From Paraspadella gotoi (taxonomy: Eukaryota > Animalia > Chaetognatha), in the NCBI GenBank assembly GCA_051294375.1, contig CM119267.1, forward strand, positions 2,635,230 through 2,699,229: a stretch of DNA of 64,000 bases, read 5' to 3'. The notes beneath the pieces were generated by a model. That model had not been told where the DNA came from. It made no database searches and saw nothing but the letters and a program-made list of their open reading frames with translations. Position numbers and translations under genes: made by a program. Numbering within the stretch: position 1 is the first letter of the stretch; each line of letters begins with the position of its first letter. Shown here piece by piece: positions 8,314 through 55,834 of this stretch.

Positions 8314-11300
8314 TGAGAGAGGAGGGAGAGAGAGAGAGGAGAGAGAGAGAGGGGACGGACGGAGAGAGAGGAGAGAGAGAGAGACGAGAGAGACTGAGAG
8401 AGCTGGAGATGGAGAGAGAGAGAGAGAGAGCAAATGAAAGGAGAGCACAAAAAAATACGAGATCGAAAAGACGAGAAAAGATGAGAGAGCCGACAAAGAG
8501 AGTAGAGTGAGAGTGAGAGAGAGAGAGAGAGCAAAAAAGAGAGCGAGAACGAAAGAGAGAAAAAGAGAAAGAAAGAGCGAAAAAGAGAGAGATATATATA
8601 CTATTCTTTTTAATCCCCCCTATTAATCGTTTCGTTTCGAAATTTCCAACCACCGATATCAATACAACGTAACATTATAAATGAAACTCTTTTCCCATTG
8701 TACCGCTAGTAACGAAAAACGTCCCTCCCTCACCGTGTTATCGAAATTAATGAGAGCCTCGTTCGTGTCCGGATCCCTGACCAGCAGAGGCGCCTTCAAG
8801 CCGCCCCGGATCTCCTCGATGTGAGTGCTCCAAGCCTCGTGGACGGCGACCTCGTATTCGATGAACATCTTGATGGTCAGATTATAATTGAGAAAAATGG
8901 GTTTGAATTCCGGGCGAAGTTCAGCGAGAGTCGGGAAAGACTCGAACGAATCTTCGTCCATCAAAACTGGCGTCGATGTATCCAGACGAGACGATCGCGA
9001 CGAGCCCGACGACGATTCGTCGCCTTCTCCGCCATCGCCGCCGCCGTCGCCGCCGCCATCGTCTCCGCCGCCGCCGTCGCCGCCCCCTTCCTCGTCGTCT
9101 TCGCCCTGATTGACGTTGATGTTGGCGTTGGCGTCGGCGATGCGTCTACGGCGCCCTCCGCCAAAATCGCCGCTGGAAAGATTCACGTCGTTGTTGTTGT
9201 TATCGTTAGTTTCGGAGTCGTCTTCGTCGTCGTCTTTGTCGTCGCCTCCGTCGGGCGCGGCGTCGCCGTCTCCGCCTTCCCCGTCCGCAGCCGCCGCAGC
9301 CGCCGCCGCTTCCGCCGCCGCCGCAGCCGCCGCCGCCTCCCTCTCCTCCATGGATTTCGTTCGCGGCTGATAGAAGATCCATTCCATTTTCAAGAACTCG
9401 TCGAAAGTCTCCTGCAGACGGCGTTGCAAAGACCGGGCCCACGAGACCGTGCCGGAAAAGGGAAGCTGCGTTCGAGCGATCGGAGGATCGTCCCGATTGT
9501 CTTCAAACATCCGACGAACGTAGTTGATCTCCTCGTCGAAGAGTTTGAACAATCCAAGGTAAGTGCCGGGTATGTCGATGCAGGGCAGATTGAGGTGAGA
9601 CCAGCGCTGGAGCAGCCGCATCATGCAAATGATGTTGGGCATCTGATCCATGTTCTTGTTGAAGAGAGTCTTGATGCTCTCCTCAAAGTCGCAGATTTGA
9701 TCGCGAAACTTTTCGAACTCGTCGTCGTAGGTCTTGTCGCGGTATTTCATCGTGTCGTGGGGGAGAGATCTGATCCAAGCGATGGACTTGTCAAATTTCC
9801 GCATCAGAGGTTCGACATTTTCGATGTTGCTTCGCCGCAAGATGGTGTAGCGACGCTCGAACGTCGCCGCTTCGATCAGCTTTTGCAGCCGCTCGCAAAA
9901 GGCGCGAAATTTCCCGAAGATGTACATTTCCGAGAATTCGAAGGGACGGTCTCCCGGGGTCTGCTCGGCCCGCTCCTTGGTCTCCCGAAAACGATACAGG
10001 TAGAGATCGAAAACCTCGACGCATTCTTGACACTTTTCCAGGATCTGGGTATTAAATTAAAAGAAGGTCAACACGAAACATAGCCGTAAAACACAAAACA
10101 TCAATAAATTAAGTCAGCGAACGAGCTCATTTGACTCTATTTTCCCAGAACATCCCATTTTATCTTAAATTCGTAATTAAGTTGATATTTTTAGTTAAAG
10201 ATTAGGTTAAAGGTTACTGATTAAGGTAAAGGGATTTATTTATAATTAGGGTTGAGCATTTGAGTTAAGGACTAGCATTTAGGGTTAAAGGTTAGGGTTA
10301 GAAATTAATAATATGGGTTTAGGGTTAGGGTTTATAATTAGGTTAAGGTTAAAGATTAAGGTTGGAGATTAGGCTTAAGAATTAGTTTATTAATTTAAGT
10401 ATTAAAATTAAATTTAAATATTTAATAAAAAAGTTTTACAATAATTTATTTTAAACAAAAAACGGACATGTTTTGGCTTTTGTTAAAAATAAATCGTTTA
10501 TGGCAACGTTAGAAAAGGTGACAAAATTTATGATAATATACATTTATTATAATGTAAAACATGAGAATAGTACATAATAATAAAATTTACTTCAAACCTT
10601 CTCACTTATTATATAAACACAACGAAAAAAGAAAAGATCATAATATAAATTTAAATATTAAAATTAAAATTAATTTTTGGCATAAATGGACAGAAATTGA
10701 GCACTCTCGGAAAAGAGAGCCGATGAGTTACAATCGCCACAATCGCACAGACAATTCCGTCCACCTCCTTCGCGCTCAACGTCCAGATGCTTTTCGTCCC
10801 ATTGGAGGTGAGGTAGTTCTTGAGGCTGTTGACGATCTGATTGGTGACTTTGATGAAGAGGGAAGTCATTCTCTCAGATGTGCTGAAGAATCGAGCAGTC
10901 GTGTTGATGGCCGCCAGTCGACGAATCAACGAAGGTATGCACGCCTGAGGTGAGAGATAAGGGCGTTATCATTTCTCATGACATATGGAAGAAGTTTACA
11001 ATTTCAAGACGACCTTTATTTGTTTGGGATCCGGACGATATAACGGTCTGACCAAGGATTCCAAGGAATAAAGAAATCTAAAAATAGAAGGAATATTGGG
11101 AACGCTTAAAATTAAAAGCAAAATATTGACAAAATAAAATGAAAAACATTAACAAGAACGGTAATTCGAAGTAATGCGCCGCAGTGACCGCCTTATCGCG
11201 TGTATTTCTCGTGACATTACATGATAACAATAAATTTCTTAGCCCATGTATTTATGATACGCACTGCATCGGAATTTCGTCTTTTATTCTTTATAGTTTT

Positions 11301-12657: not shown

Positions 12658-14427
12658 TTCCCTTCCTTCCTTCCTTCCTTCCTTCCTTTCCTTCCTTCCT
12701 TCTTTTTCTTCCTTTCTTCCTTCCTTTCCTTCCTTTCCTTCCTTCCTAACCTTCCTTCCCTTCCTTTTCTTCCTTCCTTCCTTCCTTTCCTTCCTTCCTT
12801 CCTTCCTTCCTTCCTTCCTTCCTTCCTTCCTTCCTTCCTTCCTTCCTTCCTTTTCCTTCCTTCATTCCCTTCCTTCCTTCTTTCCTTTCCTTCCTTTCTT
12901 CCTTCCTTCCTTTCTTCCTTCCTACTCCTTCCCTTCCTTCCCTTCCTTCCCTTCCTTCCCTTCCTTCCTTCATTCCCTTCGTTCCTTTATTCCCTTCCTT
13001 CCTTCCTTTCCTACCCTTTCTTCCTTCCTTCCCTTCCTTCCTTCCTTTCTTCCTTCCTACCCTTCCCTTCCTTCCCTTCCTTCCTTCCATTTATTCTTTA
13101 ATTCTTTTTTCCCTTCCCTTCCTTCCCTTCCTTCCTTCCATTTATTCTTTAATTCTTTTTTTTTTTTTTCGTCCTTCCTTTCATTTTCCCCAGAGACCAA
13201 GTCATGTACTTTTCACGCACCTGATACTCGGCCATGGTGCTGCAATTCATGAGATATTCCCCAACGTTGTCGACGGGTTCGCTCATGATTACGACGTTGT
13301 CCAAGGCACCGTGCATCGCCGTCAAATAATCGGCGAATCCAGAAAATTCGATCGAGTAATTGTCCCACTCCTCGACGCCACCTTCGAAAAAAAAAGGTGA
13401 AATTATGGTGGTATATTCACATCGCCTCACGTCCACCATCCTTCAGCCAAATCCAGTGGCTCAGAGGGGGAAACACACAATCCACAGTCCTAACGACTTC
13501 CCTCTGCGTTGGCAAAGCGAGACCGCCCTAGGGTAACCGCGCCAGTGACTGGAGGCGTCACTGAGGGTCGGAAGCCCCCAAAGCCAACAGTGAGATGCCC
13601 CATTCCAGTGGGCTTCACAGGCAATCCGGCTGTTGCCATAAAATAAAATTTATGAAATAATCGTGCGGATTCTTTCAAAAGCGCTTTGTTTGAGATTAAA
13701 TTCATAATAATAAGCAAACCAAAAAAAAAAAGAAATAATAATAAAAGCGAAACATTAAGCGGACCCGGTTTGTCCTTAAGGGCGCCCATGCAGGAATCCT
13801 TGGACGTTTTGATGTTTGCGATGACCCTCGTCTTGAGGTGATCGGCCACGGCGGGCAACATTCCTTCATAGACGGTCACGTCGAGAGAGTTGAAGACGAT
13901 CTCTCCGATGTTGTTCATGATGACGTTGTCCTTGTGGGTGCGTGTGAAGTAATACAACACTCCGGTGAGAGGCTCTTTGGTTCCGTCAGTAACGAAGAGG
14001 TATTTCTTGGCCGGAGCTGTCGTCTCCGCTTCAGCGACTTGAAAAGTGGATAAAAAAAAAAACTGAGTTGGATGAAGTCAAATGATTTCATTGCTCGAGA
14101 AGGCATTGAAATCTTGGCCACTGAGTCATCAGTTCGAATCGTTTAAACGTAATGGAAATTGCAAAGAAGTGAAACGAAAAACTTCGGTTTTTATACATGC
14201 CAATGTGAGAAGTGAAATGTGAGAAGTAAGACGTGAGAAGCCGATATTTCTACATTTTGTTTTTCATCAGGTTCAAAGGGCAAAAACGAAACGAGGGACG
14301 GACTGACTGACCCTGTTTTCGAGGTCCTTTTTGAATCGGAAGTCCTTGATTCGCATAAGACGTTCGACGATCGTCCATCTGTAACGGGATCAAAATAATC
14401 TCTCTCTCTCTCTCCTCTCTCCTCTCT

Positions 14428-16159: not shown

Positions 16160-18101
16160 TCAACAACACTTTTTTCGCCTCGATCTGGACAACTCCATCA
16201 ACGGGTCCTCGAGACTGATTCGCCGAAGATCTGCCTCCATCCGCGACTCCACTCGCTCCAGCCTCTCCATCACTTTATCCAGAAGGAACTGCATTGGGGT
16301 TTTAATTGAATTGAATTAATTAATTTTAAATTAAATTTAATTAATTAATTACGTTAGTAGTTATTCAATTGTCTACGCAAAGTACTCAACTTGTTCTTTT
16401 ACACAAAAAGCCTTTACGAAATTGATACAACCAATATAAAAAAATATCCATTCATTTAATATATAATCTATCTTGCCCCTTATGTTAGTGCTCATGATAA
16501 AAATCTGACTATTTTTTTAATTTATCATATTTTTTTTTATATTAAAGAACTGTTAGTTTAGTTTAAACTGTCCAAAGTCAAAAGCATTTATTGAATGATA
16601 GATGATTCAATTCAATTCATATTTCATAAATAGGCGAGAGAAACAACCATCTCGATAAAACCTGAATGGAATCGTCGACCATGAGACCAAATTTCGCCGA
16701 GGTTTCTATCCATCCATCGAATCCCGCGCTGCTCACTAAGTCTTCGATGCTGTTCAGGTCGATAGACCTTAATAGGGGGAAAAATGATTATCATTTTTTA
16801 TGAACAATATTACGTAAGAAGCTTATTAGCTTAATGAAATACATTCGTAAAATCCGTCTCGATTAATCTAGGGGTGTGGCGAATCTTAAATTAGGCTCTC
16901 GTATAACGAGGACAACTAATTTACTCGCTAACCCATCATGAATTCCGGGTTCAATCCCTTCAAGGTCACTGTTAGTCAAAAGTGACGGTTCTAAGATTAA
17001 AATACCCCTGAAATGCGCCGTCTCTACTGGTTTCAAAGCCATGGGGCCCCTGGGCGTCAGCTGTCGCCCATTCTTCACACCCCGGGCATCAACTCCCCCC
17101 GTTCTCGTAGGTGTACAACCAAAGAGAAATATTTCAATTTGTCATTTGCCTTTTTTCGGAATCGAGATCACATTTGTTCGCCAGAAGTAAGACAGGAATT
17201 GGATCACCGTTTCCAAGAGCACATTTTGTGTCTACGTCTCTCTTCCACTTCAACTGAGAAAAAAAAAACCAAAACAAATTATATAGAGTCACCAAAAAAA
17301 GCTAAAAAAATTTAAATTTGAAAAAAAAGAAGCAAAAACCAACGGAATTTTGGAATGAAGTTTTGTTGCTGAGATCGAAAAGAATCAAACAACCAACGGC
17401 GTCCTGAAGAAAAAAAAACAAATCAGAATCAATGCAACGCAATGCAATGCAACGCGACGCGGTGATGAGCGGCTGCCCCGTCGACTATACCTCACCTTGA
17501 AATAAACCCTCGTCATCGAGGTGAACCTTTCCTGACCGGAAATGTCCCAAAGCTGAACCTTTAAAGTCAGATCTTCAGAGTATTTGATGACCTTCAGACC
17601 GAAGTCAACTCCCATCGTGGGTTTGTAGCTTTGGAAATCTCCGTGAATATAGCTGTCAGGTTATAGGAGAGAGTATTTCTTATGAAATTGATACAACCAA
17701 TAAAGAAATTATCTATCTTGTCCCTGACTTTGGACAGTCAATGGTATGTTTAGGCCTTCATCATTTTGATAAGATAATGACATAGCAGGAAATCAAAACT
17801 CTCTTAAAGTCTACTTTATTCGTTCCCAAAGTACCTGGCTTCCCTATCAATCAAAAAGTATTTCAATTGTAAATAAATAAATATGTATTCAAATATAAAA
17901 GGACCACTCCCTTAAGTATTCGATCGGGGAATAGTATAACGTATTCCGCACTAGCATCAAATAGAAAAAAAGAGAATAAAATAGTAATCTTAATAAAGCC
18001 CCTCCTCCCCTTAAAACAAACGCCGACCGTTGAACGAAAGAGGTCTTTCCCGTCATGATGTCGCCGATGACGATGATTTTGATAATTTGTTCCGACGGCA
18101 T
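16160..18101 (-). CDS. Rab GTPase of the Rab32/38/29 group, most like Rab29 (Rab7L1); 209 aa
   Basis: Exons 18028-18101, 17496-17652, 17344-17403, 17150-17253, 16662-16767 and 16160-16288 splice in frame. Motifs GDIMTGKTS, GVDF, WDISGQERFTSMTR, LLANKCD, ETSAK and a C-terminal KKCC prenylation signal. FTSMTR rather than FGNMTR points to Rab29. Confidence 0.88.
17681..17965 (-). mobile_element. Family B repeat copy in Rab intron 1
   Basis: Colinear with 25074-25385 (tatgaaattgatacaaccaat ... gaccactcccttaagtatt ... agcatcaaa). Confidence 0.7.
17713..17777 (-). ncRNA. Degenerate type-P5 twister (family B) in Rab intron 1
   Basis: Keeps loop TCCAAAGT, TAA, AC, GA and most of P5; T1 (TGA) and P4 carry mismatches. 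Confidence 0.5.
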
Positions 18102-24808: not shown

Positions 24809-25062
24809 TTATGGCAACAGCCGGGATGCCTGTGATGCCCATTGGGATGGGGGATCTCACTCATGGCTTTGGCGGCTTCCGACCCTCAGTGATGCCTCCA
24901 ATCACTGGCGCGGTTACCCTAGGACGGTCTCGCTTTGCCAACGCAGAGGGAAGTCGTTAGGACTGTGGATGGAACATTACGCCTGTGATGGTGTGTTCCC
25001 CTCTGAGCCAATGGATTTGGCTCTAGTATGGTAGACGTGAGGCGGTGTGAATATACCGCCAC
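24809..25062 (-). mobile_element. Family A repeat, copy 2
   Basis: Reverse complement of 13406-13640 with a ~20-nt internal insertion. Confidence 0.75.
24862..24942 (-). ncRNA. Twister ribozyme, type P5 (family A, copy 2)
   Basis: Same core as 13508-13588, with a compensatory P3 change (C-G to U-A), P1 TCCTAGGG, one P4 mismatch and a shortened P5. Confidence 0.7.
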
Positions 25063-25073
25063 AAGGTAGAATA

Positions 25074-25422
25074 TATGAAATTTGTTCAACCAATATAAAT
25101 TATCCATTCATTTAATAAATAAGCTATCTTGCCCCTGACTTTGGACAGGCTTTGGTGGTTTAAGGCCTCCATCACTCTTACAAGATAATGACATAGCAGA
25201 TCCCTGCAAGCTTTCAATCAAGACTCTCTCACAGTCTCGTTTATTCACTCCCAGAGTACCTGGCTTCCCTATCAATGAAGTGGTATAATGTTTCAAAGAA
25301 AGTTTAAATTGTATGAAAAGACCACTCCCTTAAGTATTAAATCGGGGAATACTATATTGTACTCCGCCCAGCATCAAAATAGAAGGAGCTGACTTTTATG
25401 AAATTGGTACAACCAATATAAA
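25074..25422 (-). mobile_element. Family B retrozyme-like repeat: full 323-nt unit plus ~25-nt terminal redundancy
   Basis: TATGAAATTtGTtCAACCAATATAAA at 25074 recurs at 25397. Other copies at ~16415-16480, ~17681-17965, ~28515-28562, ~32681-32760 and ~51735-51900. Confidence 0.7.
25124..25188 (-). ncRNA. Twister ribozyme, type P5 (repeat family B)
   Basis: Minus strand reads TTATCTTG TAAGAGT GA TGG AGGCCT TAA ACC AC CAAAG CCTG TCCA AA GT CAGG GG CAAGATAG. P5, T1 (CCA/TGG), T2 (AC/GT) and P4 all pair; P2 pairing is weak. Confidence 0.68.
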
Positions 25423-25572
25423 AATAGAAAATAGAATATAGAAATACAATAGATATAAGAGTATAAGAGTATAAGAGTATTATTTTTTTTTGCTATGGAC
25501 GTATCTCGACCGTCAATTAAACGATGGATATTTCTTGCATTAACAGATTTGAGTATTCGGGCTGTTTAAAGC

Positions 25573-32546: not shown

Positions 32547-32998
32547 CTCATTTGGCGGTGAAAGCCGTAAACAGTTTTATCCTTCAGATGAACGTGAATG
32601 AGAATGATTTTCAGTTGCTTGACAGACAATGGAACCTCATGAGTTGGTTTGCTTGGTACTTGATTTTAAAAATTAAATAGCTTGTCCAAAGTCAGGGGCT
32701 AGATGGCTGATATAATGATTATTGAATGAAAGGAAAATTTTTATATTGGCTGTGCAATGTACCAAGACCCACTTCTGAAACGTATATATTGAACTTTAAA
32801 CAAACTAATGCGTACAACTTTCGTATTTCGCCTTTTCTTTTACTCAATTCCATTTTAAATTCGCTCCTTCCGTTTTTTTCTCTCTTTTTTTTTTTCTCCT
32901 CAATTTTTCTTTGCGTGTGGCACCCCTGTGGATCGAGGAAAGAAAGTTAACAAGAGAGAGAGAGAGAGAGAGAGAGACGAGAAGAGAGAGAGAGAAAG

Positions 32999-33912: not shown

Positions 33913-34830
33913 AGTCCAAAGAATTGATTGGAATCCTGATGAAAAGATTTTCAAATCTTTTCTCGAGGCAGAAAAGTGACCGGTCGGTCGGTCAGTATGT
34001 CTGTGCGTGGGTCTTTCCCACTTATGTTTTTATTTTAAAGGCTTATAACTCGTCTAATACTTTAACAATTCAGTTCATAATCGATAAGGAGGTAAAGTAT
34101 CATGAGACTTTCCATGTGCATTTCGCAGTAGTGACTGGCCGATAGATTTTCGAGGATTGTAAAGAGATATCAAAATCGTTATTCTTAAAGCCAATCTGAT
34201 TGGGAAACCAAGTTGGTCGGTCAGTCGGTCGGTTTGTCTGTCCGTCGGTCTGTCACTCTTACGTTAAAAACTCTAACCTCAAACACTAGTCCCTAACGCT
34301 AACATTAATCACTAACCAAGTCCCTATCCAATATCCATAACCTGTAACCTCATCTTTAACTAAAAATAAAAAAACTAACGTCGTTCCGAATTCAAGATAA
34401 AATGGGTCGTTCTGGGAAAATAAGGCCCCCTTTTTTTCAATATCCGAGTTCTGAATCGAATTCCTCGACCTCTCATGTTCCCCCGCAGATGATTTGAAGA
34501 AAGGGTGCTCTGAAAAATACGGAGAGAAACCGATTCATTTTTTCGACCACCCTTTACTCTTCGCCGTCTGGAACTCTCTTCCTCACTTTGTGCCTTCCTC
34601 CCCTTCCTCCCTTGTTTCTCCTTCCTCCTCCTCCTCATTCTTCTCCTCCTTCCTCCTTCCTCCTCATTCTTCTCCTTCTTCCTCCTTCCTCCTCCTCCTC
34701 TTCCTTTGCGTGGTGGCGAGGCATTTTTCCTTTCCTCCCTCCGCGGGTGAGGAGCAGATTAAAGGTAAGTTAATCCGGCGCCGAGGAAAATGGCCGCAGA
34801 GGAGAATGGCGTCGCCCAAAACGGTCCCAA

Positions 34831-34938
<108 letters not shown>

Positions 34939-37578
34939 ATTTATAAAGGCCCCCGAACTTATTCCGAGTCCAACTCTTTCCATTTCTTCTTCTCGTAAAT
35001 CTCAGATTTTTTTGTTCGAAAGTCGAAACGATTCTAGGTTTTCGTTACGAATTTGGTTTGAAATCGCGACTGTTCTTTATTTCCTCATTGTAATACCGGA
35101 TTTTTGACTTCATAAGTAACCTTAATCGTTTGCCGAATCTCTAAACCCCATTTTAAATATTTAACCGAATCACTCAATCCTGATCATATCCCATCGCTCG
35201 ATATTAAAATATATCGTCAAGTTAGAAAATTACGGATGTGGAAATTTAAACTCTTAATNNNNNNNNNNTTTACTGTTTTTTATTCTGTTAATCTTTGAAA
35301 TTTTTACGGTTGAGGTAAGGGCATCAACTGGATAGGATTTAATGGAATTTCGCTTTTTGGAATTTCCAGCGCCGAAAAAAAAAATGTGATGACTCGATGG
35401 TTATATCACGACGCCCGGGGGAAAAGTCCTGGTTTAGTCAACGGCGCCTCCCGTCCTATTTACTCGTCGATATAACGACGCCGGGAAAATATTCAGAGTT
35501 GGTCTGATTTATAGAGCGGACCAGTGGCATTGTTGCCATACCGAGTGGCAATTGGCGATTGGCCAGTGTCGATTAGCAATAGTGAAAATTTAACGCATTA
35601 TTACCCAAGTCTAGGTTTTTGCAATAGCGAGTATTATTTGCGAGTGAAAACAGCGAGTGGCAACTGTGAGTTTTTGTGAATCGCTTTAGCTTTTCGTTTG
35701 CTACTTTAATATCCAATCTGATATTTATTACTTAATTTAAAATCTTTTTGAAATTATGCTTTACATTATTTTATAGACCTTACCTTTTTGTCTGTTTGTC
35801 TCATCTTTTTTCCGTGCTAATTTCTTATTTTAAAGATTGAAAAGGTTTACAATGACTTATAAATAACTTTTTATACGGGCGACTCACAGAATTTTGAAGA
35901 ATTCCCTCGCTTAGCTTATTTAGTTGATTTAAAACAAATTCAAACAAATCTTAAACATTCTGCCCCTTCCCCCGCCTGACTCCACTGCCGCCCGCCCTCG
36001 CATTTCACTTGTCTCTACCCCTTACTCTCCTCATCTAGCCGAAGGTCGGAATTACGTAGATTTCCCTCCTGAGCCTGGTTCGTCCGCGAAATTTTCTGCA
36101 CAGCAAACAGCGTCATCAATCACGTCGGTCCCTATGTCGTTCCACGTTCGTCGTCGTCGTCGTCGTCGTTCGTTCTTGTAATTCGGGTTTCAACAACAAT
36201 CAGTCAGTCATGACGATAACTTGCGGACTAGCGGGTGACCAAGAAAACAAAAAATAGACGATTGAAAGTTGGTAGAGATTATGAGGAGATAATTTAAGGT
36301 TTTAGGCGCGGAAGAGAGAGAGATAACCGAGCCAGGAGACGTCGACGAGAGATCAACCGAGATCAGAGAGAGAGAGAGAGAGAGGAAGCGAGAGATGAGA
36401 GAGGAGATGTGAGAGAAGATGAGTAGGAAGAATGGTTAAAAAATTTTTGACTTATGGATCAAGCAAAGTCGATTAGGATTGCACAACGACTTCAAAAGTA
36501 AAGGGGCGAAGAAGTTGTCGAGAGAGGAGAAGTGAGAGAAGAGAGAGAGAGAGAGGAGAGAGAGACCGAGAGAGAGGAGAGAGACAGAAGACGACAGGAG
36601 AGAACGAGAGCNNNNNNNNNNNNNNNNNNNNNNNNNNNNNNNNNNNNNNNNNNNNNNNNNNNNNNNNNNNNNNNNNNNNNNNNNNNNNNNNNNNNNNNNN
36701 NNNNNNNNNNNNNNNNNNNNNNNNNNNNNNNNNNNNNNNNNNNNNNNNNNNNNNNNNNNNNNNNNNNNNNNNNNNNNNNNNNNNNNNNNNNNNNNNNNNN
36801 NNNNNNNNNNNNNNNNNNNNNNNNNNNNNNNNNNNNNNNNNNNNNNNNNNNNNNNNNNNNNNNNNNNNNNNNNNNNNNNNNNNNNNNNNNNNNNNNNNNN
36901 NNNNNNNNNNNNNNNNNNNNNNNNNNNNNNNNNNNNNNNNNNNNNNNNNNNNNNNNNNNNNNNNNNNNNNNNNNNNNNNNNNNNNNNNNNNNNNNNNNNN
37001 NNNNNNNNNNNNNNNNNNNNNNNNNNNNNNNNNNNNNNNNNNNNNNNNNNNNNNNNNNNNNNNNNNNNNNNNNNNNNNNNNNNNNNNNAGAGAGAGAGAG
37101 AGAGACAAATGGCGCAAGATTTTCTTCGCTTGAAAAATCGGTCTCTCTCGGCCCCTTAGCCTTAGTTCCACTCTGGGATCGAAAACAATCCAAGTAAAAA
37201 GGGGAGAGAAAATGGCTCGGAAACAGATAGAGACAGAGAGGAACGGACGGACGGACGGACGGAGCGAAAGACACGAAAAGGGAATCAATCGATTGATTAT
37301 TTTTGGCTAAAAAAATGACGAAAGTTTATATCTTTGCCTTTGAATCTTGGAGTTTTTAATTTGACGAAGATATTTGCATTTGAACAAGTTTCTTTTTGGT
37401 TGATTTTGATTTTTTATTTATTGGTTTAATAAACTTTAAAGGGCTCTGTTTTCTGAGAGTGCCCCATTGTTGGTTTACCCTAGAATTTAATTTTTTGTTT
37501 AATATTTTACATTGAACAGGTAAACCTATTGTGGATAAAGCGCTAAGTGGGCTGAAGTTGACTATCCGCAACTTCTTT

Positions 37579-37663
37579 AAGCCCCTCTAACAGCCAAGGA
37601 AAGGGTCCTGGGCTTGGAACCAGGCTTGAGGGTTTTCCAAAGTTGATGGCCGTTTTTACGCTT
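37579..37663 (-). ncRNA. Twister ribozyme, type P1 (family C)
   Basis: Minus strand reads AAGC G TAA A AACG GC ... CCTGG TTCC AA GC CCAGG ... TGTT A GA GGG GCTT, giving P1 AAGC/GCTT, P2 AACG/TGTT, T2 GC/GC, P4 CCTGG/CCAGG and T1 TCC/GGG. Confidence 0.68.
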
Positions 37664-37794
37664 CCTGAAGGGTAAGTACCATTGAGAATCAATTACGGTA
37701 CCTAATTGCCAAGAGCTTATATTATTACCGGGTCATAACTAAAGAGTATATGCTTATAGCTGGGGGTGAACATATTGCAGTGCCTGACTACACT

Positions 37795-37983
37795 ATATCC
37801 AAACTCCTAACCATAATCCCTAACTCTAACCAAACCCTAAACCAATATTCATAATTTCTGACCCACGTCTTTAATCTTTAACTCAAAACCCAAACCTTAA
37901 TCACTAACCAAATCCCTAACTTTAATCGCTAACCTAATTCCGAATTTTAGATAAAATGGGTCGTTCTGGGAAAATAAGGCCGA
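37795..37983 (+). repeat. Dispersed repeat with degenerate TAACCC-like arrays and a conserved GATAAAATGGGTCGTTCTGGGAAAATAAGGCC end
   Basis: Related copies at ~10133-10390 (-), ~34270-34428, ~44695-44858, ~53943-54120 (-) and 58877-58929/62598-62750 (-). Confidence 0.65.
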
Positions 37984-38715
37984 AGAGAGATACATATGAA
38001 GTTAAGCATAGTGCAATGAAATGTTCGAAATGCAATGTGAATTCCTTCGCCAAAAATTTCACAAATTCTAGCTCATTCAGCGGAAGAGAATGTTCTTTAA
38101 GCGGCGAACAAATTCGACCAAAAATTCAGAGGCACACTCCTCCACAGACTTCGCACCTCCACCTGGAGAGTGACGCTAATGAAGACGCCCGACGCCCTGG
38201 CGATCGAATCATCGAGGTCAGCCACTAGCGCCACCCCTTTATTGGCGCCAACCGACATTATTAACTAGCGCCACCCCTTTATCTTATGGCGCCTGTCTAT
38301 ACTTGGATTTCCTGTCTGCGAAACCTGCTGCTTTGACGAAGGGCGCGCCGTTGGGGTAAGACGTTTTCGTCTGCGGCGGCATTTGAGATGAGTCATTCAA
38401 AAGGGTAAGTCTTAAATTAATCAATGACTTACTGACTCAGTATTTAATCAATACATTTGGCGCGCCTAACTGTATATTGCATTTAAAAACTCAATGAGAT
38501 TGATCGTCTTTCTGACCCGAGTCGACTTTTGCAAATGGAATATTAAATATAATATAATAATTTTAATTCATTTAAATATAATATCATAAATTTAATTCAA
38601 TTAAATAAATATTTTATGTAAATTTCCTTCTTTTGTTTTCTTCTTTTCAGTTAAAAATCCGCAAATCTTTAAAGCCTTTCCCTTCAGACGATTTACGATT
38701 AAAAATTCTTGACAG

Positions 38716-38770
<55 letters not shown>

Positions 38771-38877
38771 GCCTTACCTTCGAATTAACTTGCTCTACTC
38801 GTGCTCTTCTTCCAATTTCTTAGACGCATTTGCTTCAAATTAACTTACCTCTTCAATGTCTGTTGAGATCAAAAGAT

Positions 38878-38958
<81 letters not shown>

Positions 38959-39164
38959 TTCTCTCGTTCTCGCCGACACTCAGACAACAACGAGAGATTA
39001 ATAAAAAAAAGGGAAAAAAAAGAGTGAGAGAGAGAAAGAGAGAGAGAGAGACGAGACGAAGAGAGAGACTTTGAAAAATGAATTTTATTTTAAAATCTTC
39101 TCGCCCCGCTCTGATGGTGTCATTAATTGGTTACCTCTTTGGCGCCTTCTCTCAGCGGTGGTGC

Positions 39165-39195
<31 letters not shown>

Positions 39196-39934
39196 TTCGT
39201 CGTCCTCGGGGGTTTTAACGGACGGATGGAGTCGATAAATAAAGAAAGAAAACTAAATCGGGATCGAAACTGTAAAGGGATCGAGAGATCTTGGATCGAC
39301 GCGGCGCCGCTCGATCCCCAAAAACAAAAGTCCATCGCCGATTTTTATCGGAAAAATCGGGAGAAATTTACGACGATGACAACGACGACGATGAGAGCGA
39401 CGACGACGATCTATCAAGATGATTACAGACTTGGAGAACAATTTTCGAAGTGGGCCCAGTTCAAGAGACATTCGGGTTTTTATTCTAAGGTCTCGTGGAA
39501 CGGTTCCAACGTGGAATCAGCGGAGAGACAAATATCCACGTTCACCAAATGAAGAGAATAACAGAACGAGAATAAACTGTTTAACAAAGTCACGCAGGAG
39601 GAGAGAAAGGATAGAAATAAGGAAAGAAATGGGATAGAAAGTCCTAATTGGAGTTGAGGCAGTCAGGGCGACGAAATTAGGTCGTCGGTGTCAAACTTGA
39701 TTCACGATTTCAAATTCAAAGATCGAAGCTTTAATTCTTTTGGCTTGGTCTTTATCTTTATCTAGATATATTTATCTTTATCAAGACTAATTTCTCAGTT
39801 ATTTACTTAAATTTTATTCAATTTATTTCCGAGTGCTATCTGTGTGTCTCGGTCTTTTTCTTAGGGTGACTAAGGAGGAGCTATTTGAATGTTCTCGTGC
39901 CTTTTGATTACTCTCTCGTCTCTCTCTCTCTCGG

Positions 39935-39966
<32 letters not shown>

Positions 39967-40795
39967 TCTCTCTCTCGTCTCTCCCTCTCTCTCTCTCTTT
40001 AACTTATTTTATTCACTTTATTTCCGAGTGCTATCTGTGGTCCCGATCTTTTTCTTAGGTGACTAAGGAGGAGCTATTTGAATGTTTTCTCGTGCCTTGA
40101 TACTCTCCTCTCTTCTCTCTCTCTCTCTCTCTCTCTCTCCTCCTCTCTCTCTCTCGTCTCTCCTCTCTCCCTAACCTTTATTCTGGCCAATCTACGGCTT
40201 CAACGCATTTGTTTCGGTCCCTTTCTTCATTGATGACTCATGTTTACCAATACCGTACTTTGATCGACGACGACGACGACGACGAGACGGACCGAAAACG
40301 ACGACGACGACGATGCCGGCCGAATTGTCATGTTACTCGTCGGGGCAAATTAATTACGGAAGAAAGAGGAATGGAGGGAGGAGGAGGGAGGAGGGGAGAA
40401 AGGAGTTGAGGAGTTTTATTAAAAATGCTCGGCGACAAAAAACTCGACTGTTAATTTGATTTTGAAGGTCGGGTTTCAACAAGATAAGAATAGAATAGGA
40501 GATAGGATAAAGTGGAATAAAGAATTTCATAAGATTAGAATTAGATAGAATGTTTTTGCTGACGGAATATTCTTGCGATGTTCTATGAATGCTGGTCTTC
40601 TACGGTGGGCGAGCGTTGTTTTGTTGGCGTCTAGTTATAAGCGAGATGAGTGAGAGAAGAGAAGAGAAGACAGAGAGACAAGAGACAGAGACAGGAGAGA
40701 GCAAAAAGAAGATATAAAAAGATCGAAGTCTCAAAAAAAAAACGCATCCAACTTTTTTGAGTTCGATAACTTTTGGCTTTTTGTCCCGAGCACGA

Positions 40796-40840
<45 letters not shown>

Positions 40841-41296
40841 TCCCCTTCGAGTGACGCCTGGGGGATTGGTCTCATCGTCTCAAGACTTTTTCTCCTCAAA
40901 GATTAAAAATCCGAAAATCGAACTTAATTCACACGAAAAAATTTTTTTTTCTTTTTTTCTTTTTCTTTTTTTTCTTTCTTTTATCAGTAGATTATATTTA
41001 AGAAATACATTAATATTTATCTCAAATAGTTTATATTTTGATAAATAGAATTATAAGGTTATGAAAACTTGTTATTCCACCAATAAATGCGTCTCTATAA
41101 GATTCTCATTATCGCTGATAGTCTGGTACAACCTGACCACATCCTCGTCGTCCTCGTCCTCGTCGTCGTCGTCGTCATCGTCGTCGTCGTCGTCGTCGTC
41201 GACGCCGTTGTCGCCTCGCCTGTCAAGTCGGGTCACCTTTTCTGATGATCGCATTTTCATAACATGAGTGTCTTTCAGAATGATAGACGGTAAGTT

Positions 41297-41330
<34 letters not shown>

Positions 41331-42601
41331 NNNNNNNNNNNNNNNNNNNNNNNNNNNNNNNNNNNNNNNNNNNNNNNNNNNNNNNNNNNNNNNNNNNNNN
41401 NNNNNNNNNNNNNNNNNNNNNNNNNNNNNNNNNNNNNNNNNNNNNNNNNNNNNNNNNNNNNNNNNNNNNNNNNNNNNNNNNNNNNNNNNNNNNNNNNNNN
41501 NNNNNNNNNNNNNNNNNNNNNNTCGTCGTCGTCGTCGTCGTCGTCGTCGTCTTTACCATTACCGTCGGCGGCGGAGATATCCTTTGACATTGGCGCCTGG
41601 AAATCGGCGCCAGNNNNNNNNNNNNNNNNNNNNNNNNNNNNNNNNNNNNNNNNNNNNNNNNNNNNNNNNNNNNNNNNNNNNNNNNNNNNNNNNNNNNNNN
41701 NNNNNNNNNNNNNNNNNNNNNNNNNNNNNNNNNNNNNNNNNNNNNNNNNNNNNNNNNNNNNNNNNNNNNNNNNNNNNNNNNNNNNNNNNNNNNNNNNNNN
41801 NNNNNNNNNNNNNNNNNNNNNNNNNNNNNNNNNNNNNNNNNNNNNNNNNNNNNNNNNNNNNNNNNNNNNNNNNNNTCCTTCATCCATTTAGTCTTTACAA
41901 GTTAAATAACCCAACTCGTCGAGAGGCGGAGGCCGATTAGCAATTATCACCAAAAAAAACTTTTATAAACACTAAAATTGTTTGGCACTATTTTTGTACT
42001 ATTATCGTTCGTCGACNNNNNNNNNNNNNNNNNNNNNNNNNGAGAGAGAGAGAGAGAGAGAGAGAAGAAGGGTGAGATTAAGGAAGCCCTTTTCCTTTTT
42101 TAAGTTTTTTTTTTTTTTTTTTTTACGAAATGACAGCGTCGACGAACGATAATAGTACAAAATATGTGCGAAACGAATTTTAGTGTTTATAAAAGTTTGT
42201 TTTTGCGTGATAATGCTAATCGGCCTCCGCCTCTGCGACGAGTTTGGGTTATGTTAACTTGTTAAAGACTAAAATGGACTGACAGGATACAGAAAATTGG
42301 TTGAACCTTGTAATCACTGCCTCTCTCTCCTCTCTCTCTCTTCGTCTTTCCTCCTCTCTCTCTCGTCTCGTCTCTGCTCGCTCTCTTCTCTCTCTCTCTC
42401 TTCCCCACATTTTTTTTCTACGAATCTGGCAGCCCGATCCAGGCTTCCAATGTCAAAGGATATCCTCGCGCCAGCCGACGGTAAACGGTAAAGACGACGA
42501 CGACGACGGGACGAAAACGACGACGCGACTTGGGAGAGAAGGAGGGCCACACTGGCGGGCGACGGAGGCGGAGCAATTCTGTCCGCCACTGGAGGATCGA
42601 G

Positions 42602-42639
<38 letters not shown>

Positions 42640-43554
42640 ACGAACGACGACGACCAGACGACGAACGACGACGAAACGACGATGACGACGACGACTCGTG
42701 CTCGGGAAAAAAGCCAAAAAGTTATCGAACTCAAAGAAGTTGGATGCGTTTTTTTTTTTTTGAGACTTCGTACTCCGTTTTTTTGAGCGTGTCGTTCTTT
42801 GTATGCGTTCTGCTCCGCATTGGTGTTCGCCCACTCACCTGTTTTTCTGTCTCCTTTCCTTCCTGTCTCTCTTTTCTCTCTCTCTCTCGCATCACTCCCT
42901 TCTCTCTTCTGTCTTCCCTGCATCCTCTCGTACCTCGTAGCCTCTCTCTCCTCTCTCTCTCTCTCTCTTCTCTCTCTTCTCGTCTCTCTCACTACACTTT
43001 TTCTCGCTTATACAGAAGCCAACAAATACAATCGCTCGCCACCGTAGAAGAAGCCGAGCATTCATAGAACATAGAAAAAGAAAATATATCCGTCAGCAAA
43101 AACACATTCTAATCTAATTCTAATCTTATTGTAAATTCTTATTCCACTTCTTATTCCTATCTTCTATTCCTAATTTCTTATCTATGTTTGAAACGGGCGC
43201 GACGCCTTCCAAAAAAAAAAAACCAAATTAACTACGAGTTTTTGGTCCGAGCCATTTTTTAAAAACTCTCAAGCTCATCTTTCTCTCCTCCTCCTCTCCT
43301 CCTCACCACTTCCTCCTCCCCGTAATTAATTTGCCCCGAAGCGAGTACCGTGACAGATTCGGTCCGAGCATGCAGTCGTCGTCGTCGTTTTCCCGTCGTC
43401 GGTCGGTCGTCGTCGTCTGTCGAGTCAAAAAGTCGAAAATGAAAACCATGATCGGAATGAAGGAAAATACTGAAAGCCTCGGGCCGTCTTGGGGCCGCCC
43501 CGAATGAAGAAGAGAGAGAGAGAGAAGAGAAGAGAGAGAGAGAAGAGAGGAAGA

Positions 43555-43589
<35 letters not shown>

Positions 43590-45204
43590 GAGAGAGAAGA
43601 GAGAGGAGAGTATCAGAGGCACGAAGAAATCAATAGCTCCTTAGTTCACCTAAGAAAGGACCGAGACACAACAGATAGCACTCGGAAATAAATTGAAAAT
43701 AAAATTTAAAGTAAATAACTGAGAAATTAGTCGCTCTGATAAAGATAAATATATTTTCTAGATAAAGATAAAAGACCAAGCCAAAAGAGTCTACGAATTA
43801 AAGCTTCGATCTTTGAATTTGAAAATCCGTGAATCAACGAGTTTGACACCGCGACACCTAATTGTCGTCGCCTGACTGCCTCAACTCCAGATTAGGACTT
43901 TCTATCCATTTCTTTCCTTATTTCTATCGCTGGTTCTCTCCTCCTGCGTGACTTTGTTAAAACAGTTTAATTCTCGTTCTGTTATTCTCTTCATTTTGTG
44001 AACGTGATATTTGTCTCTCCGTGATTCCACGTTGGACCGTATCCCACGAGACCTTAGAATAACCAGAGGTCTGTGTGAACTGGCCACTTCGAAATACTTG
44101 TTGTTCTCCAGTCTGTTCTCTCTCTCTCGATGACACAAAAATAATATTTTCCTTATGACAAATTGAAAAAACAACAAAACAAATTGATAAAATAATAAGT
44201 TTTAATTAAAAGTAGAGTCGAGGCGCGAAGTTCGACCGACGACGAAATCATTAAAACCCCAGACGAGTCTATTTTTTTTTCTTGGGCTACAATTTCAGTT
44301 TTTAAGTTTTATTAATAAAAGAGAAAAAAGGTTTAATACTTTTCATTTGGGGGGGGGGAAATGTTGGCTCTCTTTTCCGAGATTGCCCCATTTCGGTTCT
44401 TGTATCACGAACTTGAATTTTAATTTTAATATCATCGGGCTCGGATGATCTCCGCAGGGAATGGAATTGCCAAAACCTATTGGTCGAGATGGAACCAGAA
44501 CCGGCTTGCAGAATCATTGGAATGGTTAAATTGACCCTTACCACCGATCCTCTTCCATGACGATATATAGACCTAGTTTGTTGTAGATAAAGTAATATTT
44601 ATTAAGACTCCTGCCCGTGTCTCGCCGTCACCATTTAATCTAAAAAAAAAAATCTATAAGTTTTTTCCTTAAATGTGGTGGCAGTGGTAGAATTAGAGCC
44701 CTAACTATAATCCCTAACCTTTAACAATTACCTCGAACCCTAATCCCAAACCTTAATTACAAAATTTATCTCTGATTTTAATCACTATCCGATTCCTTAA
44801 TCCTAACATTTAAACCGAATTTAAAATAAAACGAGGCATTCTGAGAAAATAAGGCCGAAATGGGGCTGAGGTCGCTCGTGAGAGATAATACGAACTGGAG
44901 CCGCCAAAGTTACGTTTCGACGCCAAACGATTTAAATTCAGCCATCGATGAAAACTTTAAATTTATTAATGGCACTTTTTCTGTTTATCTTCGGCTAAGG
45001 TGAGAGACAGGGTGAGAGACAGAGTGAGAGACAGATTGAGAGACAGATTGAGAGCACTGAGGAAGAGACACAGAGAGGGAGATAGAATGGATGAGACAGA
45101 GAAGATAGAGACAGAGTAGAGCAGACGCGTTCGTATTTCCGATAACTTTTTTTGAATTCAAAAATAGTTGCCTTGTTTATGTTGTTGTTGTTGTTTTGTT
45201 GTTG

Positions 45205-45241
<37 letters not shown>

Positions 45242-45585
45242 GCTTGTTGTTGTTGTTGCTTGTTGTTGTGTTGTATGTTGTTGTTGTTTTCTCCCGTTCG
45301 TGAATTGAATCTTTATCTCGTTTTTTTGTCTCGAGACAGTTTGAATCCCAGATGAGAGAGAGACGAGAGAGAGAGAGGAAGAGAGAGGAGGAGGATGAGA
45401 GGAGGAGTAGACGAAGGAAAAGAAAGAAGAAAGGAAAACGAAAGAAAGAAAGAAAGACTAAGAAAAGAAAAGAAAGAAAGAGAGAGAAGAGAGAGAGAAG
45501 AGTGAAGAGAAAAGCTTGTGAAATTTTACTTTCGATTATCAATTTTGAGTCTTTTTCTAATAAGTATTTCAATTGTTGTCTTTAA

Positions 45586-48500: not shown

Positions 48501-49051
48501 TCCATTTCTACCGATGCCATCGAAAACTTGATTTTCCTGCTCACATCACACACTCCCTACCCACACACCAAAACTTTTATCAAATGTTCTTCTGAACATA
48601 ATATAAGTGTGTGCCCGACCAATATTGAGTGGGCAACCCGACGGGACCGACAAAGTGGAATATAGGCAAGTCGGATCTTGCTGATAAGCAGATCCGACCT
48701 TAAAAGTGAAAAAATAACCTTTACTGACCTGGATATCGTGGCTCCGTTGCTGCGAGCCCTAGAGAAGCAGCACGAAGAGCACGAACAATTCGTCAAGGGA
48801 AAAGGCCCATTAACGCGTTCGATGGCAACGGAAACGTTACGTAATATAAAAAAAATCAACATGACCCAATTTCACACGGGCGGGGGTGGGGAACAACAAC
48901 GGTGCTATGTTTATAAAAAAAAATCTACGCTCGACGAGATACACGCCGCCGTTGCGAAGGGAAACGGATGATAACCCGCAACTCAAAACGAGAGTGACCT
49001 AAATACATGTCGTCTCTGTTTGGCGGGAAACTGTCCAGCTTCTTTTTCTTT

Positions 49052-49103
<52 letters not shown>

Positions 49104-51163: not shown

Positions 51164-51734
51164 TGAAAAAGAACTAAAAAATAAAAGATCGAATTAGGAT
51201 GCAGTGCCAAGGTTGTCACGTAATTACCCAAAAATACAGATGAAAAACAATCACGACGGCGCAACACATTGGATTAACCGTTCTCGTCTTTTCATTTTTC
51301 TTTTCTTGTCGCTTTTCTCTTTTTCTCTTTTGTTGTTCTTTTGTCGCGAATTCTTCACTTGCTTCGGGACGAATCACGCCATCGCGTGAGGAAAAAGAGA
51401 GAGAGNNNNNNNNNNNNNNNNNNNNNNNNNNNNNNCTCACTTACCCACCACTACCCAGAATCGCGACACGACATGTCCGACGCTCTTTTTCTCTCGATCC
51501 AATCGTCGGTCAAGTTAGCCGTCTCTCTCTCCTCTTCTCTCTCTCTCTCTCTTCTCTCTCTCTCCTCTCTCTCTTCTCTCTCTCTCTCGTCTCTCTCTCT
51601 CTGGGTAAGTTAGTGGGTGATGAGTTTTTAAGGAAAGGGGGGCGGGGCGAGAATGAGGATGAAAAATTTAAGAATTCGTTAATTTTTATCACATTTATCT
51701 TTTCTGCAATTGTAACAGTTTATAAAAACATTTA

Positions 51735-51900
51735 ATTGATAGGAAAGTCAGGTGGGCTGGGAGTGAATAAAATCGATTGTCATTATCTTGTGAGAGTGAT
51801 GGAAACCTTAAAACCACCAAAGCCTGTCCAAAGTCAGAGGCAAGATAGCTTGTTTATTAAATGAAGAGATAATTTTTATATGGTTTATACTAATTTCACG
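51735..51900 (+). mobile_element. Family B repeat copy, 5'-truncated
   Basis: Reverse complement of ~25075-25275 with an internal deletion. Confidence 0.65.
51783..51848 (+). ncRNA. Type-P5 twister (family B), partly degenerate
   Basis: TTATCTTG TGAGAGT GA TGG AAACCT TAA AACC AC CAAAG CCTG TCCAAAGT CAGA GG CAAGATAG; the P1 palindrome is lost and P4 has one mismatch. Confidence 0.55.
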
Positions 51901-54716: not shown

Positions 54717-54790
<74 letters not shown>

Positions 54791-55275: not shown

Positions 55276-55319
<44 letters not shown>

Positions 55320-55560: not shown

Positions 55561-55834
55561 GCAAGTTTTGCATAACCTGTATAATTCTATTTATCAAAAA
55601 ATATTAAAACTATTTGAGATAAATATTAATAGTATTTTCTTAAAATTATAAATTACTGATAAAAGAAGAAAAAAGAAAAAAAGAAAAAAAAGAAAAAAAA
55701 TTTTTTCGTAGTGAATTAAGTTCGATTTTCGGATTTTTAATCTTTAGGAGAAAAAGTCTTGAGACAGATGGACCAATCCCCCAGGCTCACTCGAAGGGGT
55801 GAGACGACGACGACGGACGAGACGGACGACGACA

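What the first reader, a model, noticed from the sequence alone, without database searches (positions are those of the whole stretch)
25074..25422. Family B: 323-nt terminally redundant repeat with a second P5 twister, a candidate twister retrozyme
Seen: the minus strand at 25124-25188 folds as a P5 twister (T1 CCA/TGG, T2 AC/GT, P4 CCTG/CAGG, P5 TATCTTG/CAAGATA). The unit's first ~25 nt recur 323 nt later. At least six copies or fragments lie in this 64 kb, most sharing the same end (..TATTGGTTGTACCAATTTCATA on the RNA strand) with variable 5' truncation. Known: metazoan non-LTR retrozymes are short non-coding units with a hammerhead that yield circular RNAs. Inference: a fixed 3' end, 5' truncation and more-than-unit length fit reverse transcription of a circular or multimeric RNA processed by twister instead of hammerhead. 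Caveat: P2 pairs poorly in these copies.
Basis: partly seen in the sequence, partly recalled or inferred. Interest (0 to 1): 0.88.

Follow-up and report, generated by a model that had tools for sequence, protein, structure and literature searches.

The report
Twister ribozyme repeat copied head-to-tail
This is one copy of an abundant protein-free animal repeat whose 323-base unit carries a twister self-cutting RNA fold instead of the hammerhead found in known retrozymes, and whose copies share one end and sometimes run on head-to-tail, as they likely would if a borrowed Penelope-type reverse transcriptase copied a circular or multimeric RNA; cutting and the circle are untested.

Summary
Observation confirmed and extended. 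The minus strand at 25125-25187 has the order and catalytic residues of a type-P5 twister, with both pseudoknots intact through compensatory changes (Rfam 25.8 bits, below the 37.6 cut-off; a fitted strict descriptor hits 0 of 328 window shuffles). Public contigs show a very abundant family with one fixed end, depth falling steadily away from it, no step at the predicted cut, and head-to-tail junctions at other loci (about 2-4% of peak depth). The 26-nt redundancy is therefore part of a circular or multimeric template, not a quirk of this copy. New here: P1 is a loopless palindrome, suggesting two-copy cleavage as in double hammerheads, and the fixed end lies 88 nt after the cut at a hairpin, as in the anole Penelope-like element. 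Not shown: cleavage, a circle, a full dimer, the partner element. The scan earlier noted palindromic-P1 P5 twisters in Naiad Penelope tails in other genomes (unverified by me); I found no short head-to-tail twister unit in notes or papers. Verdict: likely twister counterpart of animal retrozymes, a new variant of a known kind.

The parts
25074..25396 (-). One full repeat unit (323 nt here; 323-325 suggested by joints in contigs), non-coding, 37% G+C
   Evidence: period 323; joints in contigs; no Pfam hit for its 73-codon open frame; no tRNA
25397..25422 (-). End of the preceding unit (terminal redundancy, 24 of 26 identical to 25074-25099); carries the family-majority version of the terminal hairpin
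   Evidence: loose-end consensus
25125..25187 (-). Type-P5 twister ribozyme fold (P5 closes the motif)
   Evidence: Rfam RF02684 25.8 bits; pair list; strict descriptor
25161..25162 (-). Predicted self-cleavage site U/A, 88 nt upstream of the fixed end
   Evidence: register from Rfam alignment and PMC8501958 Table 1; distance; cleavage untested
25163..25168 (-). P1 reduced to a 6-nt palindrome (AGGCCU) with no loop; predicted to pair with the same stretch of a second copy
   Evidence: self-duplex -9.1 kcal/mol; monomer 1-bp hairpin costs 3.6; no variant at 5% or more; kept in window copies at 17.7 and 28.5 kb, lost at 51.8 kb
25157..25177 (-). Imperfect P2: A-U, C-G, then C-G across a bulged A25176 (or a C.A mismatch)
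   Evidence: 25176 varies in 2-13% of depth and no listed variant restores a 4-bp P2
25074..25099 (-). Fixed 3' end with a 6-bp hairpin (two changes in this copy); likely start site of reverse transcription
   Evidence: shared end in 4 of 6 window copies; random AT-rich flanks beyond it in contigs of four runs (table 7)
17680..17973 (-). Older near-unit-length copy (73% identity) in an intron of a Ras-family GTPase gene; 5' end matches about 25384
51729..51899 (+). 5'-truncated copy with internal deletion; twister core still passes the loose descriptor
16415..16481 (-). Short 3'-end fragment; a weak oppositely oriented fragment lies at 16567-16605
32677..32756 (+). Decayed 3'-end fragment starting in P4
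28517..28561 (+). Internal fragment covering the 5' half of the twister

Best explanation
This is a non-coding, high-copy retroelement whose 323-nt unit carries a type-P5 twister fold and recurs head-to-tail in DNA, and it likely works like an animal retrozyme: a multimeric transcript would be cut by the twister into unit-length RNAs that are likely circularised, and a Penelope-like reverse transcriptase supplied in trans likely starts at the terminal hairpin and copies round the template. Shown: the fold, the fixed end, the truncation gradient, passage through the cut site, junctions at several loci. Inferred: (1) the twister cuts (about 0.7), best as a two-copy dimer through the palindromic P1, while the monomer has an alternative fold that would spare it from re-cutting; (2) the template is head-to-tail (about 0.85), a circle in about half of that; (3) reverse transcription starts internally at the hairpin 88 nt past the cut, primed at a nick in AT-rich DNA, by a Penelope-like enzyme (about 0.7), Naiad being the lead candidate; most events stop early (13-16% of depth reaches 267 nt, 3-4% passes the junction).
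For: Fold and chance control. Abundance: 29074 and 9082 contigs of two DNA runs lie on a 900-nt stretch; summed depth on the unit is 1e6-7e6 against 168 on neighbouring single-copy DNA in X1 (not a copy number). Gradient in X1: 7.3M (25114-25) to 4.8M (25150-73), 1.6M (25294-329), 0.15M (25378-89); same shape in X2 and X5. No step at the cut: depth ratio across 25162/25161 is 0.99, 1.02, 1.01 in three DNA runs, unlike RTE twisters, which define the 5' end (PMC8501958). Junctions: with the upper repeat left out of the reference, three listed X1 contigs join the unit start to the unit end through unit-like letters that differ from this copy (table 5c; 12 of 213 rows shown); with it included, position 25382 is covered by 90, 38 and 7 contigs (X1, X5, X9) at 3.7, 3.2 and 1.9% of peak depth, falling to 2.1, 0.27 and 0.01% without it; the joint 25421 to 25097 has up to 49 letters on its shorter side, more than the 26-nt repeat; an X9 contig with 16 differences and 21 gaps spans 25189-25425. 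Variants at 5% or more: 0 of 52 structured positions against 15 of 141 others (p 0.007). Published tolerance of P1 and P2 flaws when pseudoknots and catalytic bases are intact (PMC11662667). Anole Poseidon: ribozyme cut 26 nt and reverse transcription start 111-118 nt into the ORF (85-92 nt apart, my subtraction), in a stem-loop, at AT-rich targets (PMC11167929). Palindromic weak helix that works in dimers is the hallmark of metazoan hammerheads (PMC4209133).
Against: Rfam score is below the family cut-off. P2 has only a 3-nt 5' strand and the majority does not repair it; the published tolerance data are for type-P1 twisters only. The minimum-energy fold of the core (-16.2 kcal/mol) and the three-copy consensus pair the T1 strand with P4 instead (pseudoknots are not modelled). 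The circle is only moderately structured: -78 kcal/mol, z -1.8, 64% paired. The variant test weakens to p 0.05-0.08 if the bulge is counted as structured or the core is taken as a block (2 of 63 against 13 of 130), and subfamily variants are not independent. No array with two complete twisters was seen; junction depth is a few percent, so most copies are dispersed fragments. In anole Poseidon, ribozyme cleavage is not needed for insertion in vitro and uncut RNA is the main template (PMC11167929), so passage through the cut does not prove ligation. No reverse transcriptase among 146 window frames and no genome to search.
Confidence: 0.55

Rival explanations
1. The family is an internally deleted, non-autonomous derivative (or the tail) of a twister-bearing Penelope-like element such as Naiad. 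It is copied from linear, uncut, partial-tandem transcripts by internal initiation; no circle is made and the twister is incidental to copying.
For: Naiad insertions are strongly 5'-truncated and form partial tandems, and Naiads lack hammerheads (bioRxiv 10.1101/2021.04.23.441226). Uncut RNA is the main template of anole Poseidon. Earlier scan notes describe P5 twisters with palindromic P1 in Naiad tails (unverified). The DNA pattern fits a linear multimer equally.
Against: The period between ends is only about 323 nt in this copy and in at least one other locus (X9 contig 25189-25425). None of the 24 loose-end rows shown (of 1590) gives a high-agreement continuation into a longer element on the 5' side. 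Variants avoid the structured positions, which suggests selection on the fold in the short unit's lineage.
Confidence: 0.27
2. The twister is a dead or weak relic; the repeat is an ordinary non-autonomous retroposon that spread by its terminal hairpin alone.
For: Sub-threshold Rfam score, 3-bp bulged P2, loopless P1, competing fold.
Against: All positions that published tests found critical are intact (both pseudoknots, G base, A1, A2, P4 fourth pair); two compensatory changes against the Rfam consensus; no listed variant at a paired or catalytic position.
Confidence: 0.08
3. A DNA-level rolling-circle element (Helitron-like) or dispersed satellite: one fixed end, a terminal hairpin and head-to-tail junctions arise through a DNA circle, and the twister is a passenger.
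For: Terminal hairpin, AT-rich insertion sites, no clear target duplication, junctions. That such elements give these features is recalled, not tested.
Against: The fold works only as RNA on one strand (circle z -1.8 on that strand, +0.5 on the other); a smooth one-sided truncation gradient is the signature of reverse transcription; the end is not CTRR (recalled Helitron end; sequence); two window copies change the hairpin to a G.U pair that holds only on the RNA strand.
Confidence: 0.06
4. A SINE or LINE end in which the twister trims the 5' end of the element RNA, as in RTE/Perere-3.
For: The only published retroelement role of twisters (PMC8501958; PMC7761336).
Against: Those twisters are type P1 at the 5' end with the target duplication next to the cut; here the cut is 88 nt from the 3' end, copies show no step at it, and there is no tRNA head or poly(A)/simple-repeat tail at the shared end.
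Confidence: 0.04

Closest known systems
Metazoan non-LTR retrozymes (Cervera and de la Pena 2020, PMC7229834; Li, Clavereau and Pollet 2026, bioRxiv 10.64898/2026.07.22.740005)
   Same: Non-coding unit within the 170-400 nt range, G+C under 50%, one self-cleaving motif per unit, head-to-tail organisation, many dispersed monomer derivatives, no LTR/PBS/PPT, a ribozyme with a weak palindromic helix suited to dimer action (as in axolotl).
   Different: Twister (type P5) in place of a type I hammerhead; no array with two complete ribozymes and no circular RNA shown; most copies are 5'-truncated fragments; circle less self-paired than described for retrozymes.
Penelope-like elements: Poseidon of the green anole (PMC11167929) and Naiad (bioRxiv 10.1101/2021.04.23.441226)
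   Same: Fixed 3' end set by internal initiation at a stem-loop about 85-92 nt past the ribozyme cut (88 nt here), AT-rich targets, heavy 5' truncation, partial tandems.
   Different: No ORF; the period is about 323 nt rather than 3-4 kb; the ribozyme is a twister. Poseidon has a hammerhead; Naiad has no published ribozyme.
Type-P5 twister ribozyme (Rfam RF02684)
   Same: Order of strands, G general base, U/AA cut, L4, both pseudoknots, P4, closing P5.
   Different: P1 is a 6-nt loopless palindrome; P2 has three pairs and a bulge; score below the gathering threshold.
Twister variants of RTE/Perere-3 in Schistosoma mansoni (PMC8501958)
   Same: Twister carried by a non-LTR retroelement in an animal genome at high copy.
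   Different: Type P1 at the 5' end of a coding LINE, cut site equals the element boundary; here type P5, internal, near the 3' end of a non-coding unit.
Twister-bearing viroid-like circular RNAs from metatranscriptomes (bioRxiv 10.1101/2022.07.19.500677)
   Same: A twister can serve to cut multimers of a small circular RNA.
   Different: Those are RNA replicons, the examples I read being twister-P1; this one is genome-encoded with dispersed DNA copies.

Membership tests
Type-P5 twister ribozyme | Strand order and closing P5 | tested here: met
   P5 7 of 7 pairs
Type-P5 twister ribozyme | Two pseudoknots, P4, catalytic G and A1/A2 | tested here: met
   two compensatory changes against the Rfam consensus
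Type-P5 twister ribozyme | Four-base-pair P2 and a hairpin P1 | tested here: not met
   P2 three pairs with a bulge, not repaired in the majority; P1 loopless palindrome. Both kinds of flaw are tolerated in type-P1 twisters (PMC11662667)
Type-P5 twister ribozyme | Rfam gathering score 37.6 | tested here: not met
   25.8 bits
Type-P5 twister ribozyme | Site-specific self-cleavage | not testable with these tools
   needs in vitro transcription
Non-LTR retrozyme | Type I hammerhead in each unit | tested here: not met
   no hammerhead core in the unit; so not a member as defined, though it may work like one
Non-LTR retrozyme | Non-coding unit of about 150-450 nt, G+C under 50% | tested here: met
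   323 nt, 37% G+C, no Pfam hit
Non-LTR retrozyme | Head-to-tail tandem organisation | tested here: met
   junction in this copy and at other loci
Non-LTR retrozyme | [quoted passage not shown] | tested here: inconclusive
   a contig has 49 letters or more on both sides of the junction, reaching P4 of the preceding unit; short contigs cannot show a full dimer
Non-LTR retrozyme | Abundant unit-length linear and circular RNA | tested here: inconclusive
   one RNA-like run holds unit and junction contigs, but contigs show neither level nor ends
Non-LTR retrozyme | Highly self-paired circle | tested here: inconclusive
   64% paired, z -1.8 against 100 shuffles
Penelope-like element derivative | Fixed 3' end, 5' truncation, partial tandems, AT-rich targets | tested here: met
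Penelope-like element derivative | Sequence shared with the pseudo-LTR of an autonomous element with RT and GIY-YIG domains | not testable with these tools
   no genome held; no RT in 146 window frames
Penelope-like element derivative | Optional 30-40 bp tail and inverted 5'-truncated neighbours | tested here: inconclusive
   no second end seen in the rows shown; one opposite-strand joint and a weak inverted pair at 16.4-16.6 kb
DNA transposon (TIR/TSD) | Terminal inverted repeats and two sharp ends | tested here: not met
   only one sharp end; the 15-nt inverted match between the ends is the terminal hairpin seen twice

The most novel reading that the evidence does not exclude
The first genome-encoded twister retrozyme: a 323-nt circular RNA cut from multimers by a two-copy (double) twister whose P1 helices form in trans through a palindrome, and written back into DNA by a Naiad-type Penelope reverse transcriptase. 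It would show that hammerhead and twister lineages of Penelope-like elements each spawned their own circle-forming parasites and converged on dimer-only cleavage.
Probability: 0.35. Interest if true: 0.85.

Novelty: new variant of a known kind. Interest (0 to 1): 0.67.

Why it matters
Retrozymes are defined, and searched for, by the hammerhead alone (the 2026 survey's text never mentions twister), so a twister-based counterpart would be invisible to current surveys and falls below the Rfam cut-off. It would separate the retrozyme life cycle from one ribozyme class, give eukaryotic P5 twisters a concrete job, and offer a natural test of a double-twister fold. The 88-nt spacing to a fixed end makes the proposed Penelope-retrozyme partnership directly testable: the unit should be a template for a Penelope-like enzyme that starts at the hairpin.

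Tried and rejected
No whole genome is held, so tandem arrays, target duplications across copies and the autonomous partner could not be searched. Rfam at gathering level: 0 hits in the window. Two exact-pattern scans of metagenome contigs (both halves of the twister; P4-P5 part) found 0 stretches; one scan of viral contigs for P5 twisters with a very short P1 found 0. A protein search with a 42-residue exon next to the element found nothing; the host was not pursued beyond 'animal-like'. No RNA holder on record was listed; run X9 behaves like RNA (covers the exon from 25545, not the intron) and its profile on the unit resembles the DNA profile, but contigs show neither level nor ends and short circles are easily lost, so this is no evidence either way. 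Run X10 (organism B) holds one low-depth contig of this family and one of the neighbouring family; a trace or a relative cannot be told apart, so it is not used. Target duplication: a 9-nt direct repeat (25067-25075 and 25432-25440) flanks this copy but is not adjacent to the repeat end and lies in AT-rich low-complexity DNA; none was evident by eye in the other copies; not used. A restored P2 in the majority: rejected. A pile-up of 5' ends at the cut: not seen. tRNA-derived SINE: no tRNA. Another twister family in the window: none found. Sequence look-up in earlier findings and the genome look-up were empty. One literature search timed out. Supplements were not read; those of PMC7229834, PMC11662667 and Roth et al. 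2014 (not held) may list P5 twisters in tandem repeats.

Full report
Setting. The window is intron-rich animal-like DNA: dynein heavy chain N-terminal exons, a Ras-family GTPase and an EamA-type transporter are the convincing Pfam hits among 146 frames scanned, and none is a reverse transcriptase. No genome is held, so family-wide evidence comes from public contigs laid on the locus. The element lies just upstream of an exon starting near 25547, on the opposite strand; the exon's likeness to CCDC92 is recalled and was not confirmed (one search found nothing).

The twister fold is real. On the minus strand the order is P5, P2', GA, T1', P1, U/AA, P2, T2, P4, L4, P4', P5'. Pair by pair: P5 7 of 7, P4 4 of 4, T1 U-A/G-C/G-C, T2 A-U/C-G. 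Against the Rfam consensus one T1 pair and one T2 pair are changed on both sides and still pair; the register agrees with Table 1 of PMC8501958. Rfam gives 25.8 bits, under the 37.6 cut-off, E 0.0046 locally and 0.32 window-wide. A loose descriptor is hit by chance (43 of 5000 unit shuffles, 0.68 per shuffled window); with P4, two P2 pairs and a 6-bp P5 added, only this site is found, 0 of 328 window shuffles and 0 of 22612 unit shuffles (fitted after the fact).

Two departures from the textbook fold. P2 has a 3-nt 5' strand: A-U, C-G and a third C-G across a bulged A25176. It does not: among variants at 5% or more in four runs, the 63-nt core has only two, at 25132 (linker between P4 and P5) and at 25176 itself (2-13%, giving no new pair). 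P1 is six bases, AGGCCU, a palindrome with no loop; as a monomer it can give one pair at a cost of 3.6 kcal/mol, whereas two copies form a 6-bp duplex (-9.1 kcal/mol). I noted this before reading earlier scan notes. It parallels the short palindromic helix III of metazoan hammerheads, which cleave well only as dimers in tandem repeats (PMC4209133, passages; axolotl data in PMC7229834, passages). High-throughput tests of 1948 natural type-P1 twisters found flaws in P1 and P2 well tolerated, and the pseudoknots, catalytic bases, A2 and the fourth pair of P4 critical (PMC11662667, sections 31, 32, 35); all of these are intact here. Variants avoid structured positions (0 of 52 against 15 of 141 over 25097-25289, p 0.007; 0.014 without the CpG pair), but I left out the letter private to this copy (25200), I classed 25176 as unpaired after seeing the table, and the result falls to p 0.05-0.08 otherwise. 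Against activity: the lowest-energy nested fold pairs the T1 strand with P4; this could be a protective inactive form of the monomer or a sign of a poor ribozyme.

The family. Six clear copies and one weak one lie in 64 kb. In run X1, 29074 contigs lie on a 900-nt stretch and summed depth on the unit reaches 6.8 million against 168 on the adjacent single-copy DNA. The tool warns that this is no copy number; the ratio of about 40,000-50,000, or about 1,400-1,700 if every position were counted 31 times, and one copy per 10 kb in the window, point to thousands of copies or more. One end is fixed: beyond the terminal sequence the flanks are unrelated and AT-rich in all four runs (table 7). Depth falls away from that end: 13-16% of peak at 25340 in the DNA runs X1 and X5. 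Part of the fall near 25350-25396 reflects private changes in this copy. There is no step at the predicted cut (ratios 0.99, 1.02, 1.01 in DNA; 0.89 in X9), so the copied RNA was uncut or re-ligated there.

The redundancy is a property of the template. In one search the best-supported joint goes back 325 bases (23, 20 and 12 contigs in X1, X5, X9), but ordinary ends could produce it because they fit the upper repeat better. I therefore laid contigs on a reference without the upper repeat. Three of the 12 rows shown in table 5c (of 213) still join the start of the unit to its end through unit-like letters that differ from this copy and from each other (one has 34 letters with about five substitutions and two one-base indels, aligned by eye), each at about twice single-copy depth. 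Coverage just inside the junction is 3.7, 3.2 and 1.9% of peak when the upper repeat is available and 2.1, 0.27 and 0.01% when it is not, so many contigs there span the junction. One contig has at least 49 letters on both sides, and an X9 contig from another locus spans 25189-25425. The linker between unit start and previous end is homologous among loci, which excludes chance insertion of one copy next to another. What contigs cannot show is a full dimer or a long array. A group of copies stops 12-17 nt short of a full turn (27 X5 contigs turn random after about 25381; the 17.7-kb copy ends near 25384); this may be stalling at the end of a round or plain A-rich microhomology.

Mechanism. One fixed end at a hairpin, AT-rich targets, 5' truncation and partial tandems are the marks of Penelope-like elements. 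In the anole element, reverse transcription starts inside the RNA, in a stem-loop 111-118 nt into the ORF, while the hammerhead cuts at 26 nt, and the enzyme nicks AT-rich DNA (PMC11167929, parts 1-2 read): 85-92 nt apart, against 88 nt here. Animal retrozymes are proposed to be non-autonomous derivatives of these elements (bioRxiv 10.64898/2026.07.22.740005, parts 1-3 read). Naiads are published as lacking hammerheads (bioRxiv 10.1101/2021.04.23.441226, passages), and unverified scan notes place P5 twisters with palindromic P1 in Naiad tails in other genomes; this makes Naiad my lead for the partner, untested here. The same anole paper shows that uncut RNA is the main template in vitro, so a linear multimer remains a serious rival to a circle. 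The circle folds to -78 kcal/mol, z -1.8, better than the other strand (z +0.5) but not strikingly.

Comparison and novelty. It is not a retrozyme as defined (no hammerhead) but meets the size, composition and head-to-tail criteria. Published retroelement twisters are type P1 at the 5' end of RTE LINEs (PMC8501958, parts 1 and 3; PMC7761336, passages); twister-bearing circles are known from metatranscriptomes (bioRxiv 10.1101/2022.07.19.500677, passages) and tandem ribozyme pairs from totiviruses (PMC13725137, passages). I found no description of a twister retrozyme: searches twister ribozyme + retrozyme (13 papers), twister + retrotransposon + tandem + circular RNA + metazoan (12), twister ribozyme + retrotransposon + eukaryot (23), retrozyme since 2021 (43), Naiad + Penelope + twister (0), twister ribozyme + Penelope (12); most hits were seen as listings only, and passages were read in PMC6765202, PMC5680766 and PMC10085705. 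Roth et al. 2014 was not read, and supplements were not seen. Among scan notes, two hold both twister and retrozyme, and neither reports a head-to-tail unit.

Verdict. Real feature; new variant of a known kind; interest 0.67. Fold, abundance, fixed end and junctions are shown; cleavage, dimer action, circle and partner are inferred.

Noticed in passing
window 24809-25064 (also 13403-13653): A second very abundant repeat of about 255 bp with two sharp ends, a 6-bp terminal inverted repeat and internal hairpins, no Rfam hit; it ends 10 nt from the fixed end of the twister repeat, and joints in X1 and X5 (2 contigs each) also place its end next to that terminus, which may be alleles of this locus or further loci.
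   Followed up: partly
window 16415-16605: Two fragments of the twister repeat in opposite orientation about 85 nt apart with their 3' ends pointing outward, like the inverted pairs described for Penelope-like insertions; the second fragment is weak (E 0.26).
   Followed up: partly
window 25147-25151, 25293-25300, about 25381: Places where many contigs leave the unit for unrelated sequence: preferred 5' truncation points, one inside the twister just before P4, none listed at the cut itself.
   Followed up: no
window 37089-45457 and 53388-63824: Large inverted duplication at 75-90% identity, rich in microsatellites and with runs of N; may be a real duplication or an assembly artefact.
   Followed up: no
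window 10138-10293, 34268-34427, 37905-37981, 58878-58929: A further short dispersed repeat family, not examined.
   Followed up: no
window 8659-10056: Dynein heavy chain N-terminal exon carrying a long low-complexity insertion (poly-Ala, Asp/Gly-rich) inside the DHC_N1 domain.
   Followed up: no
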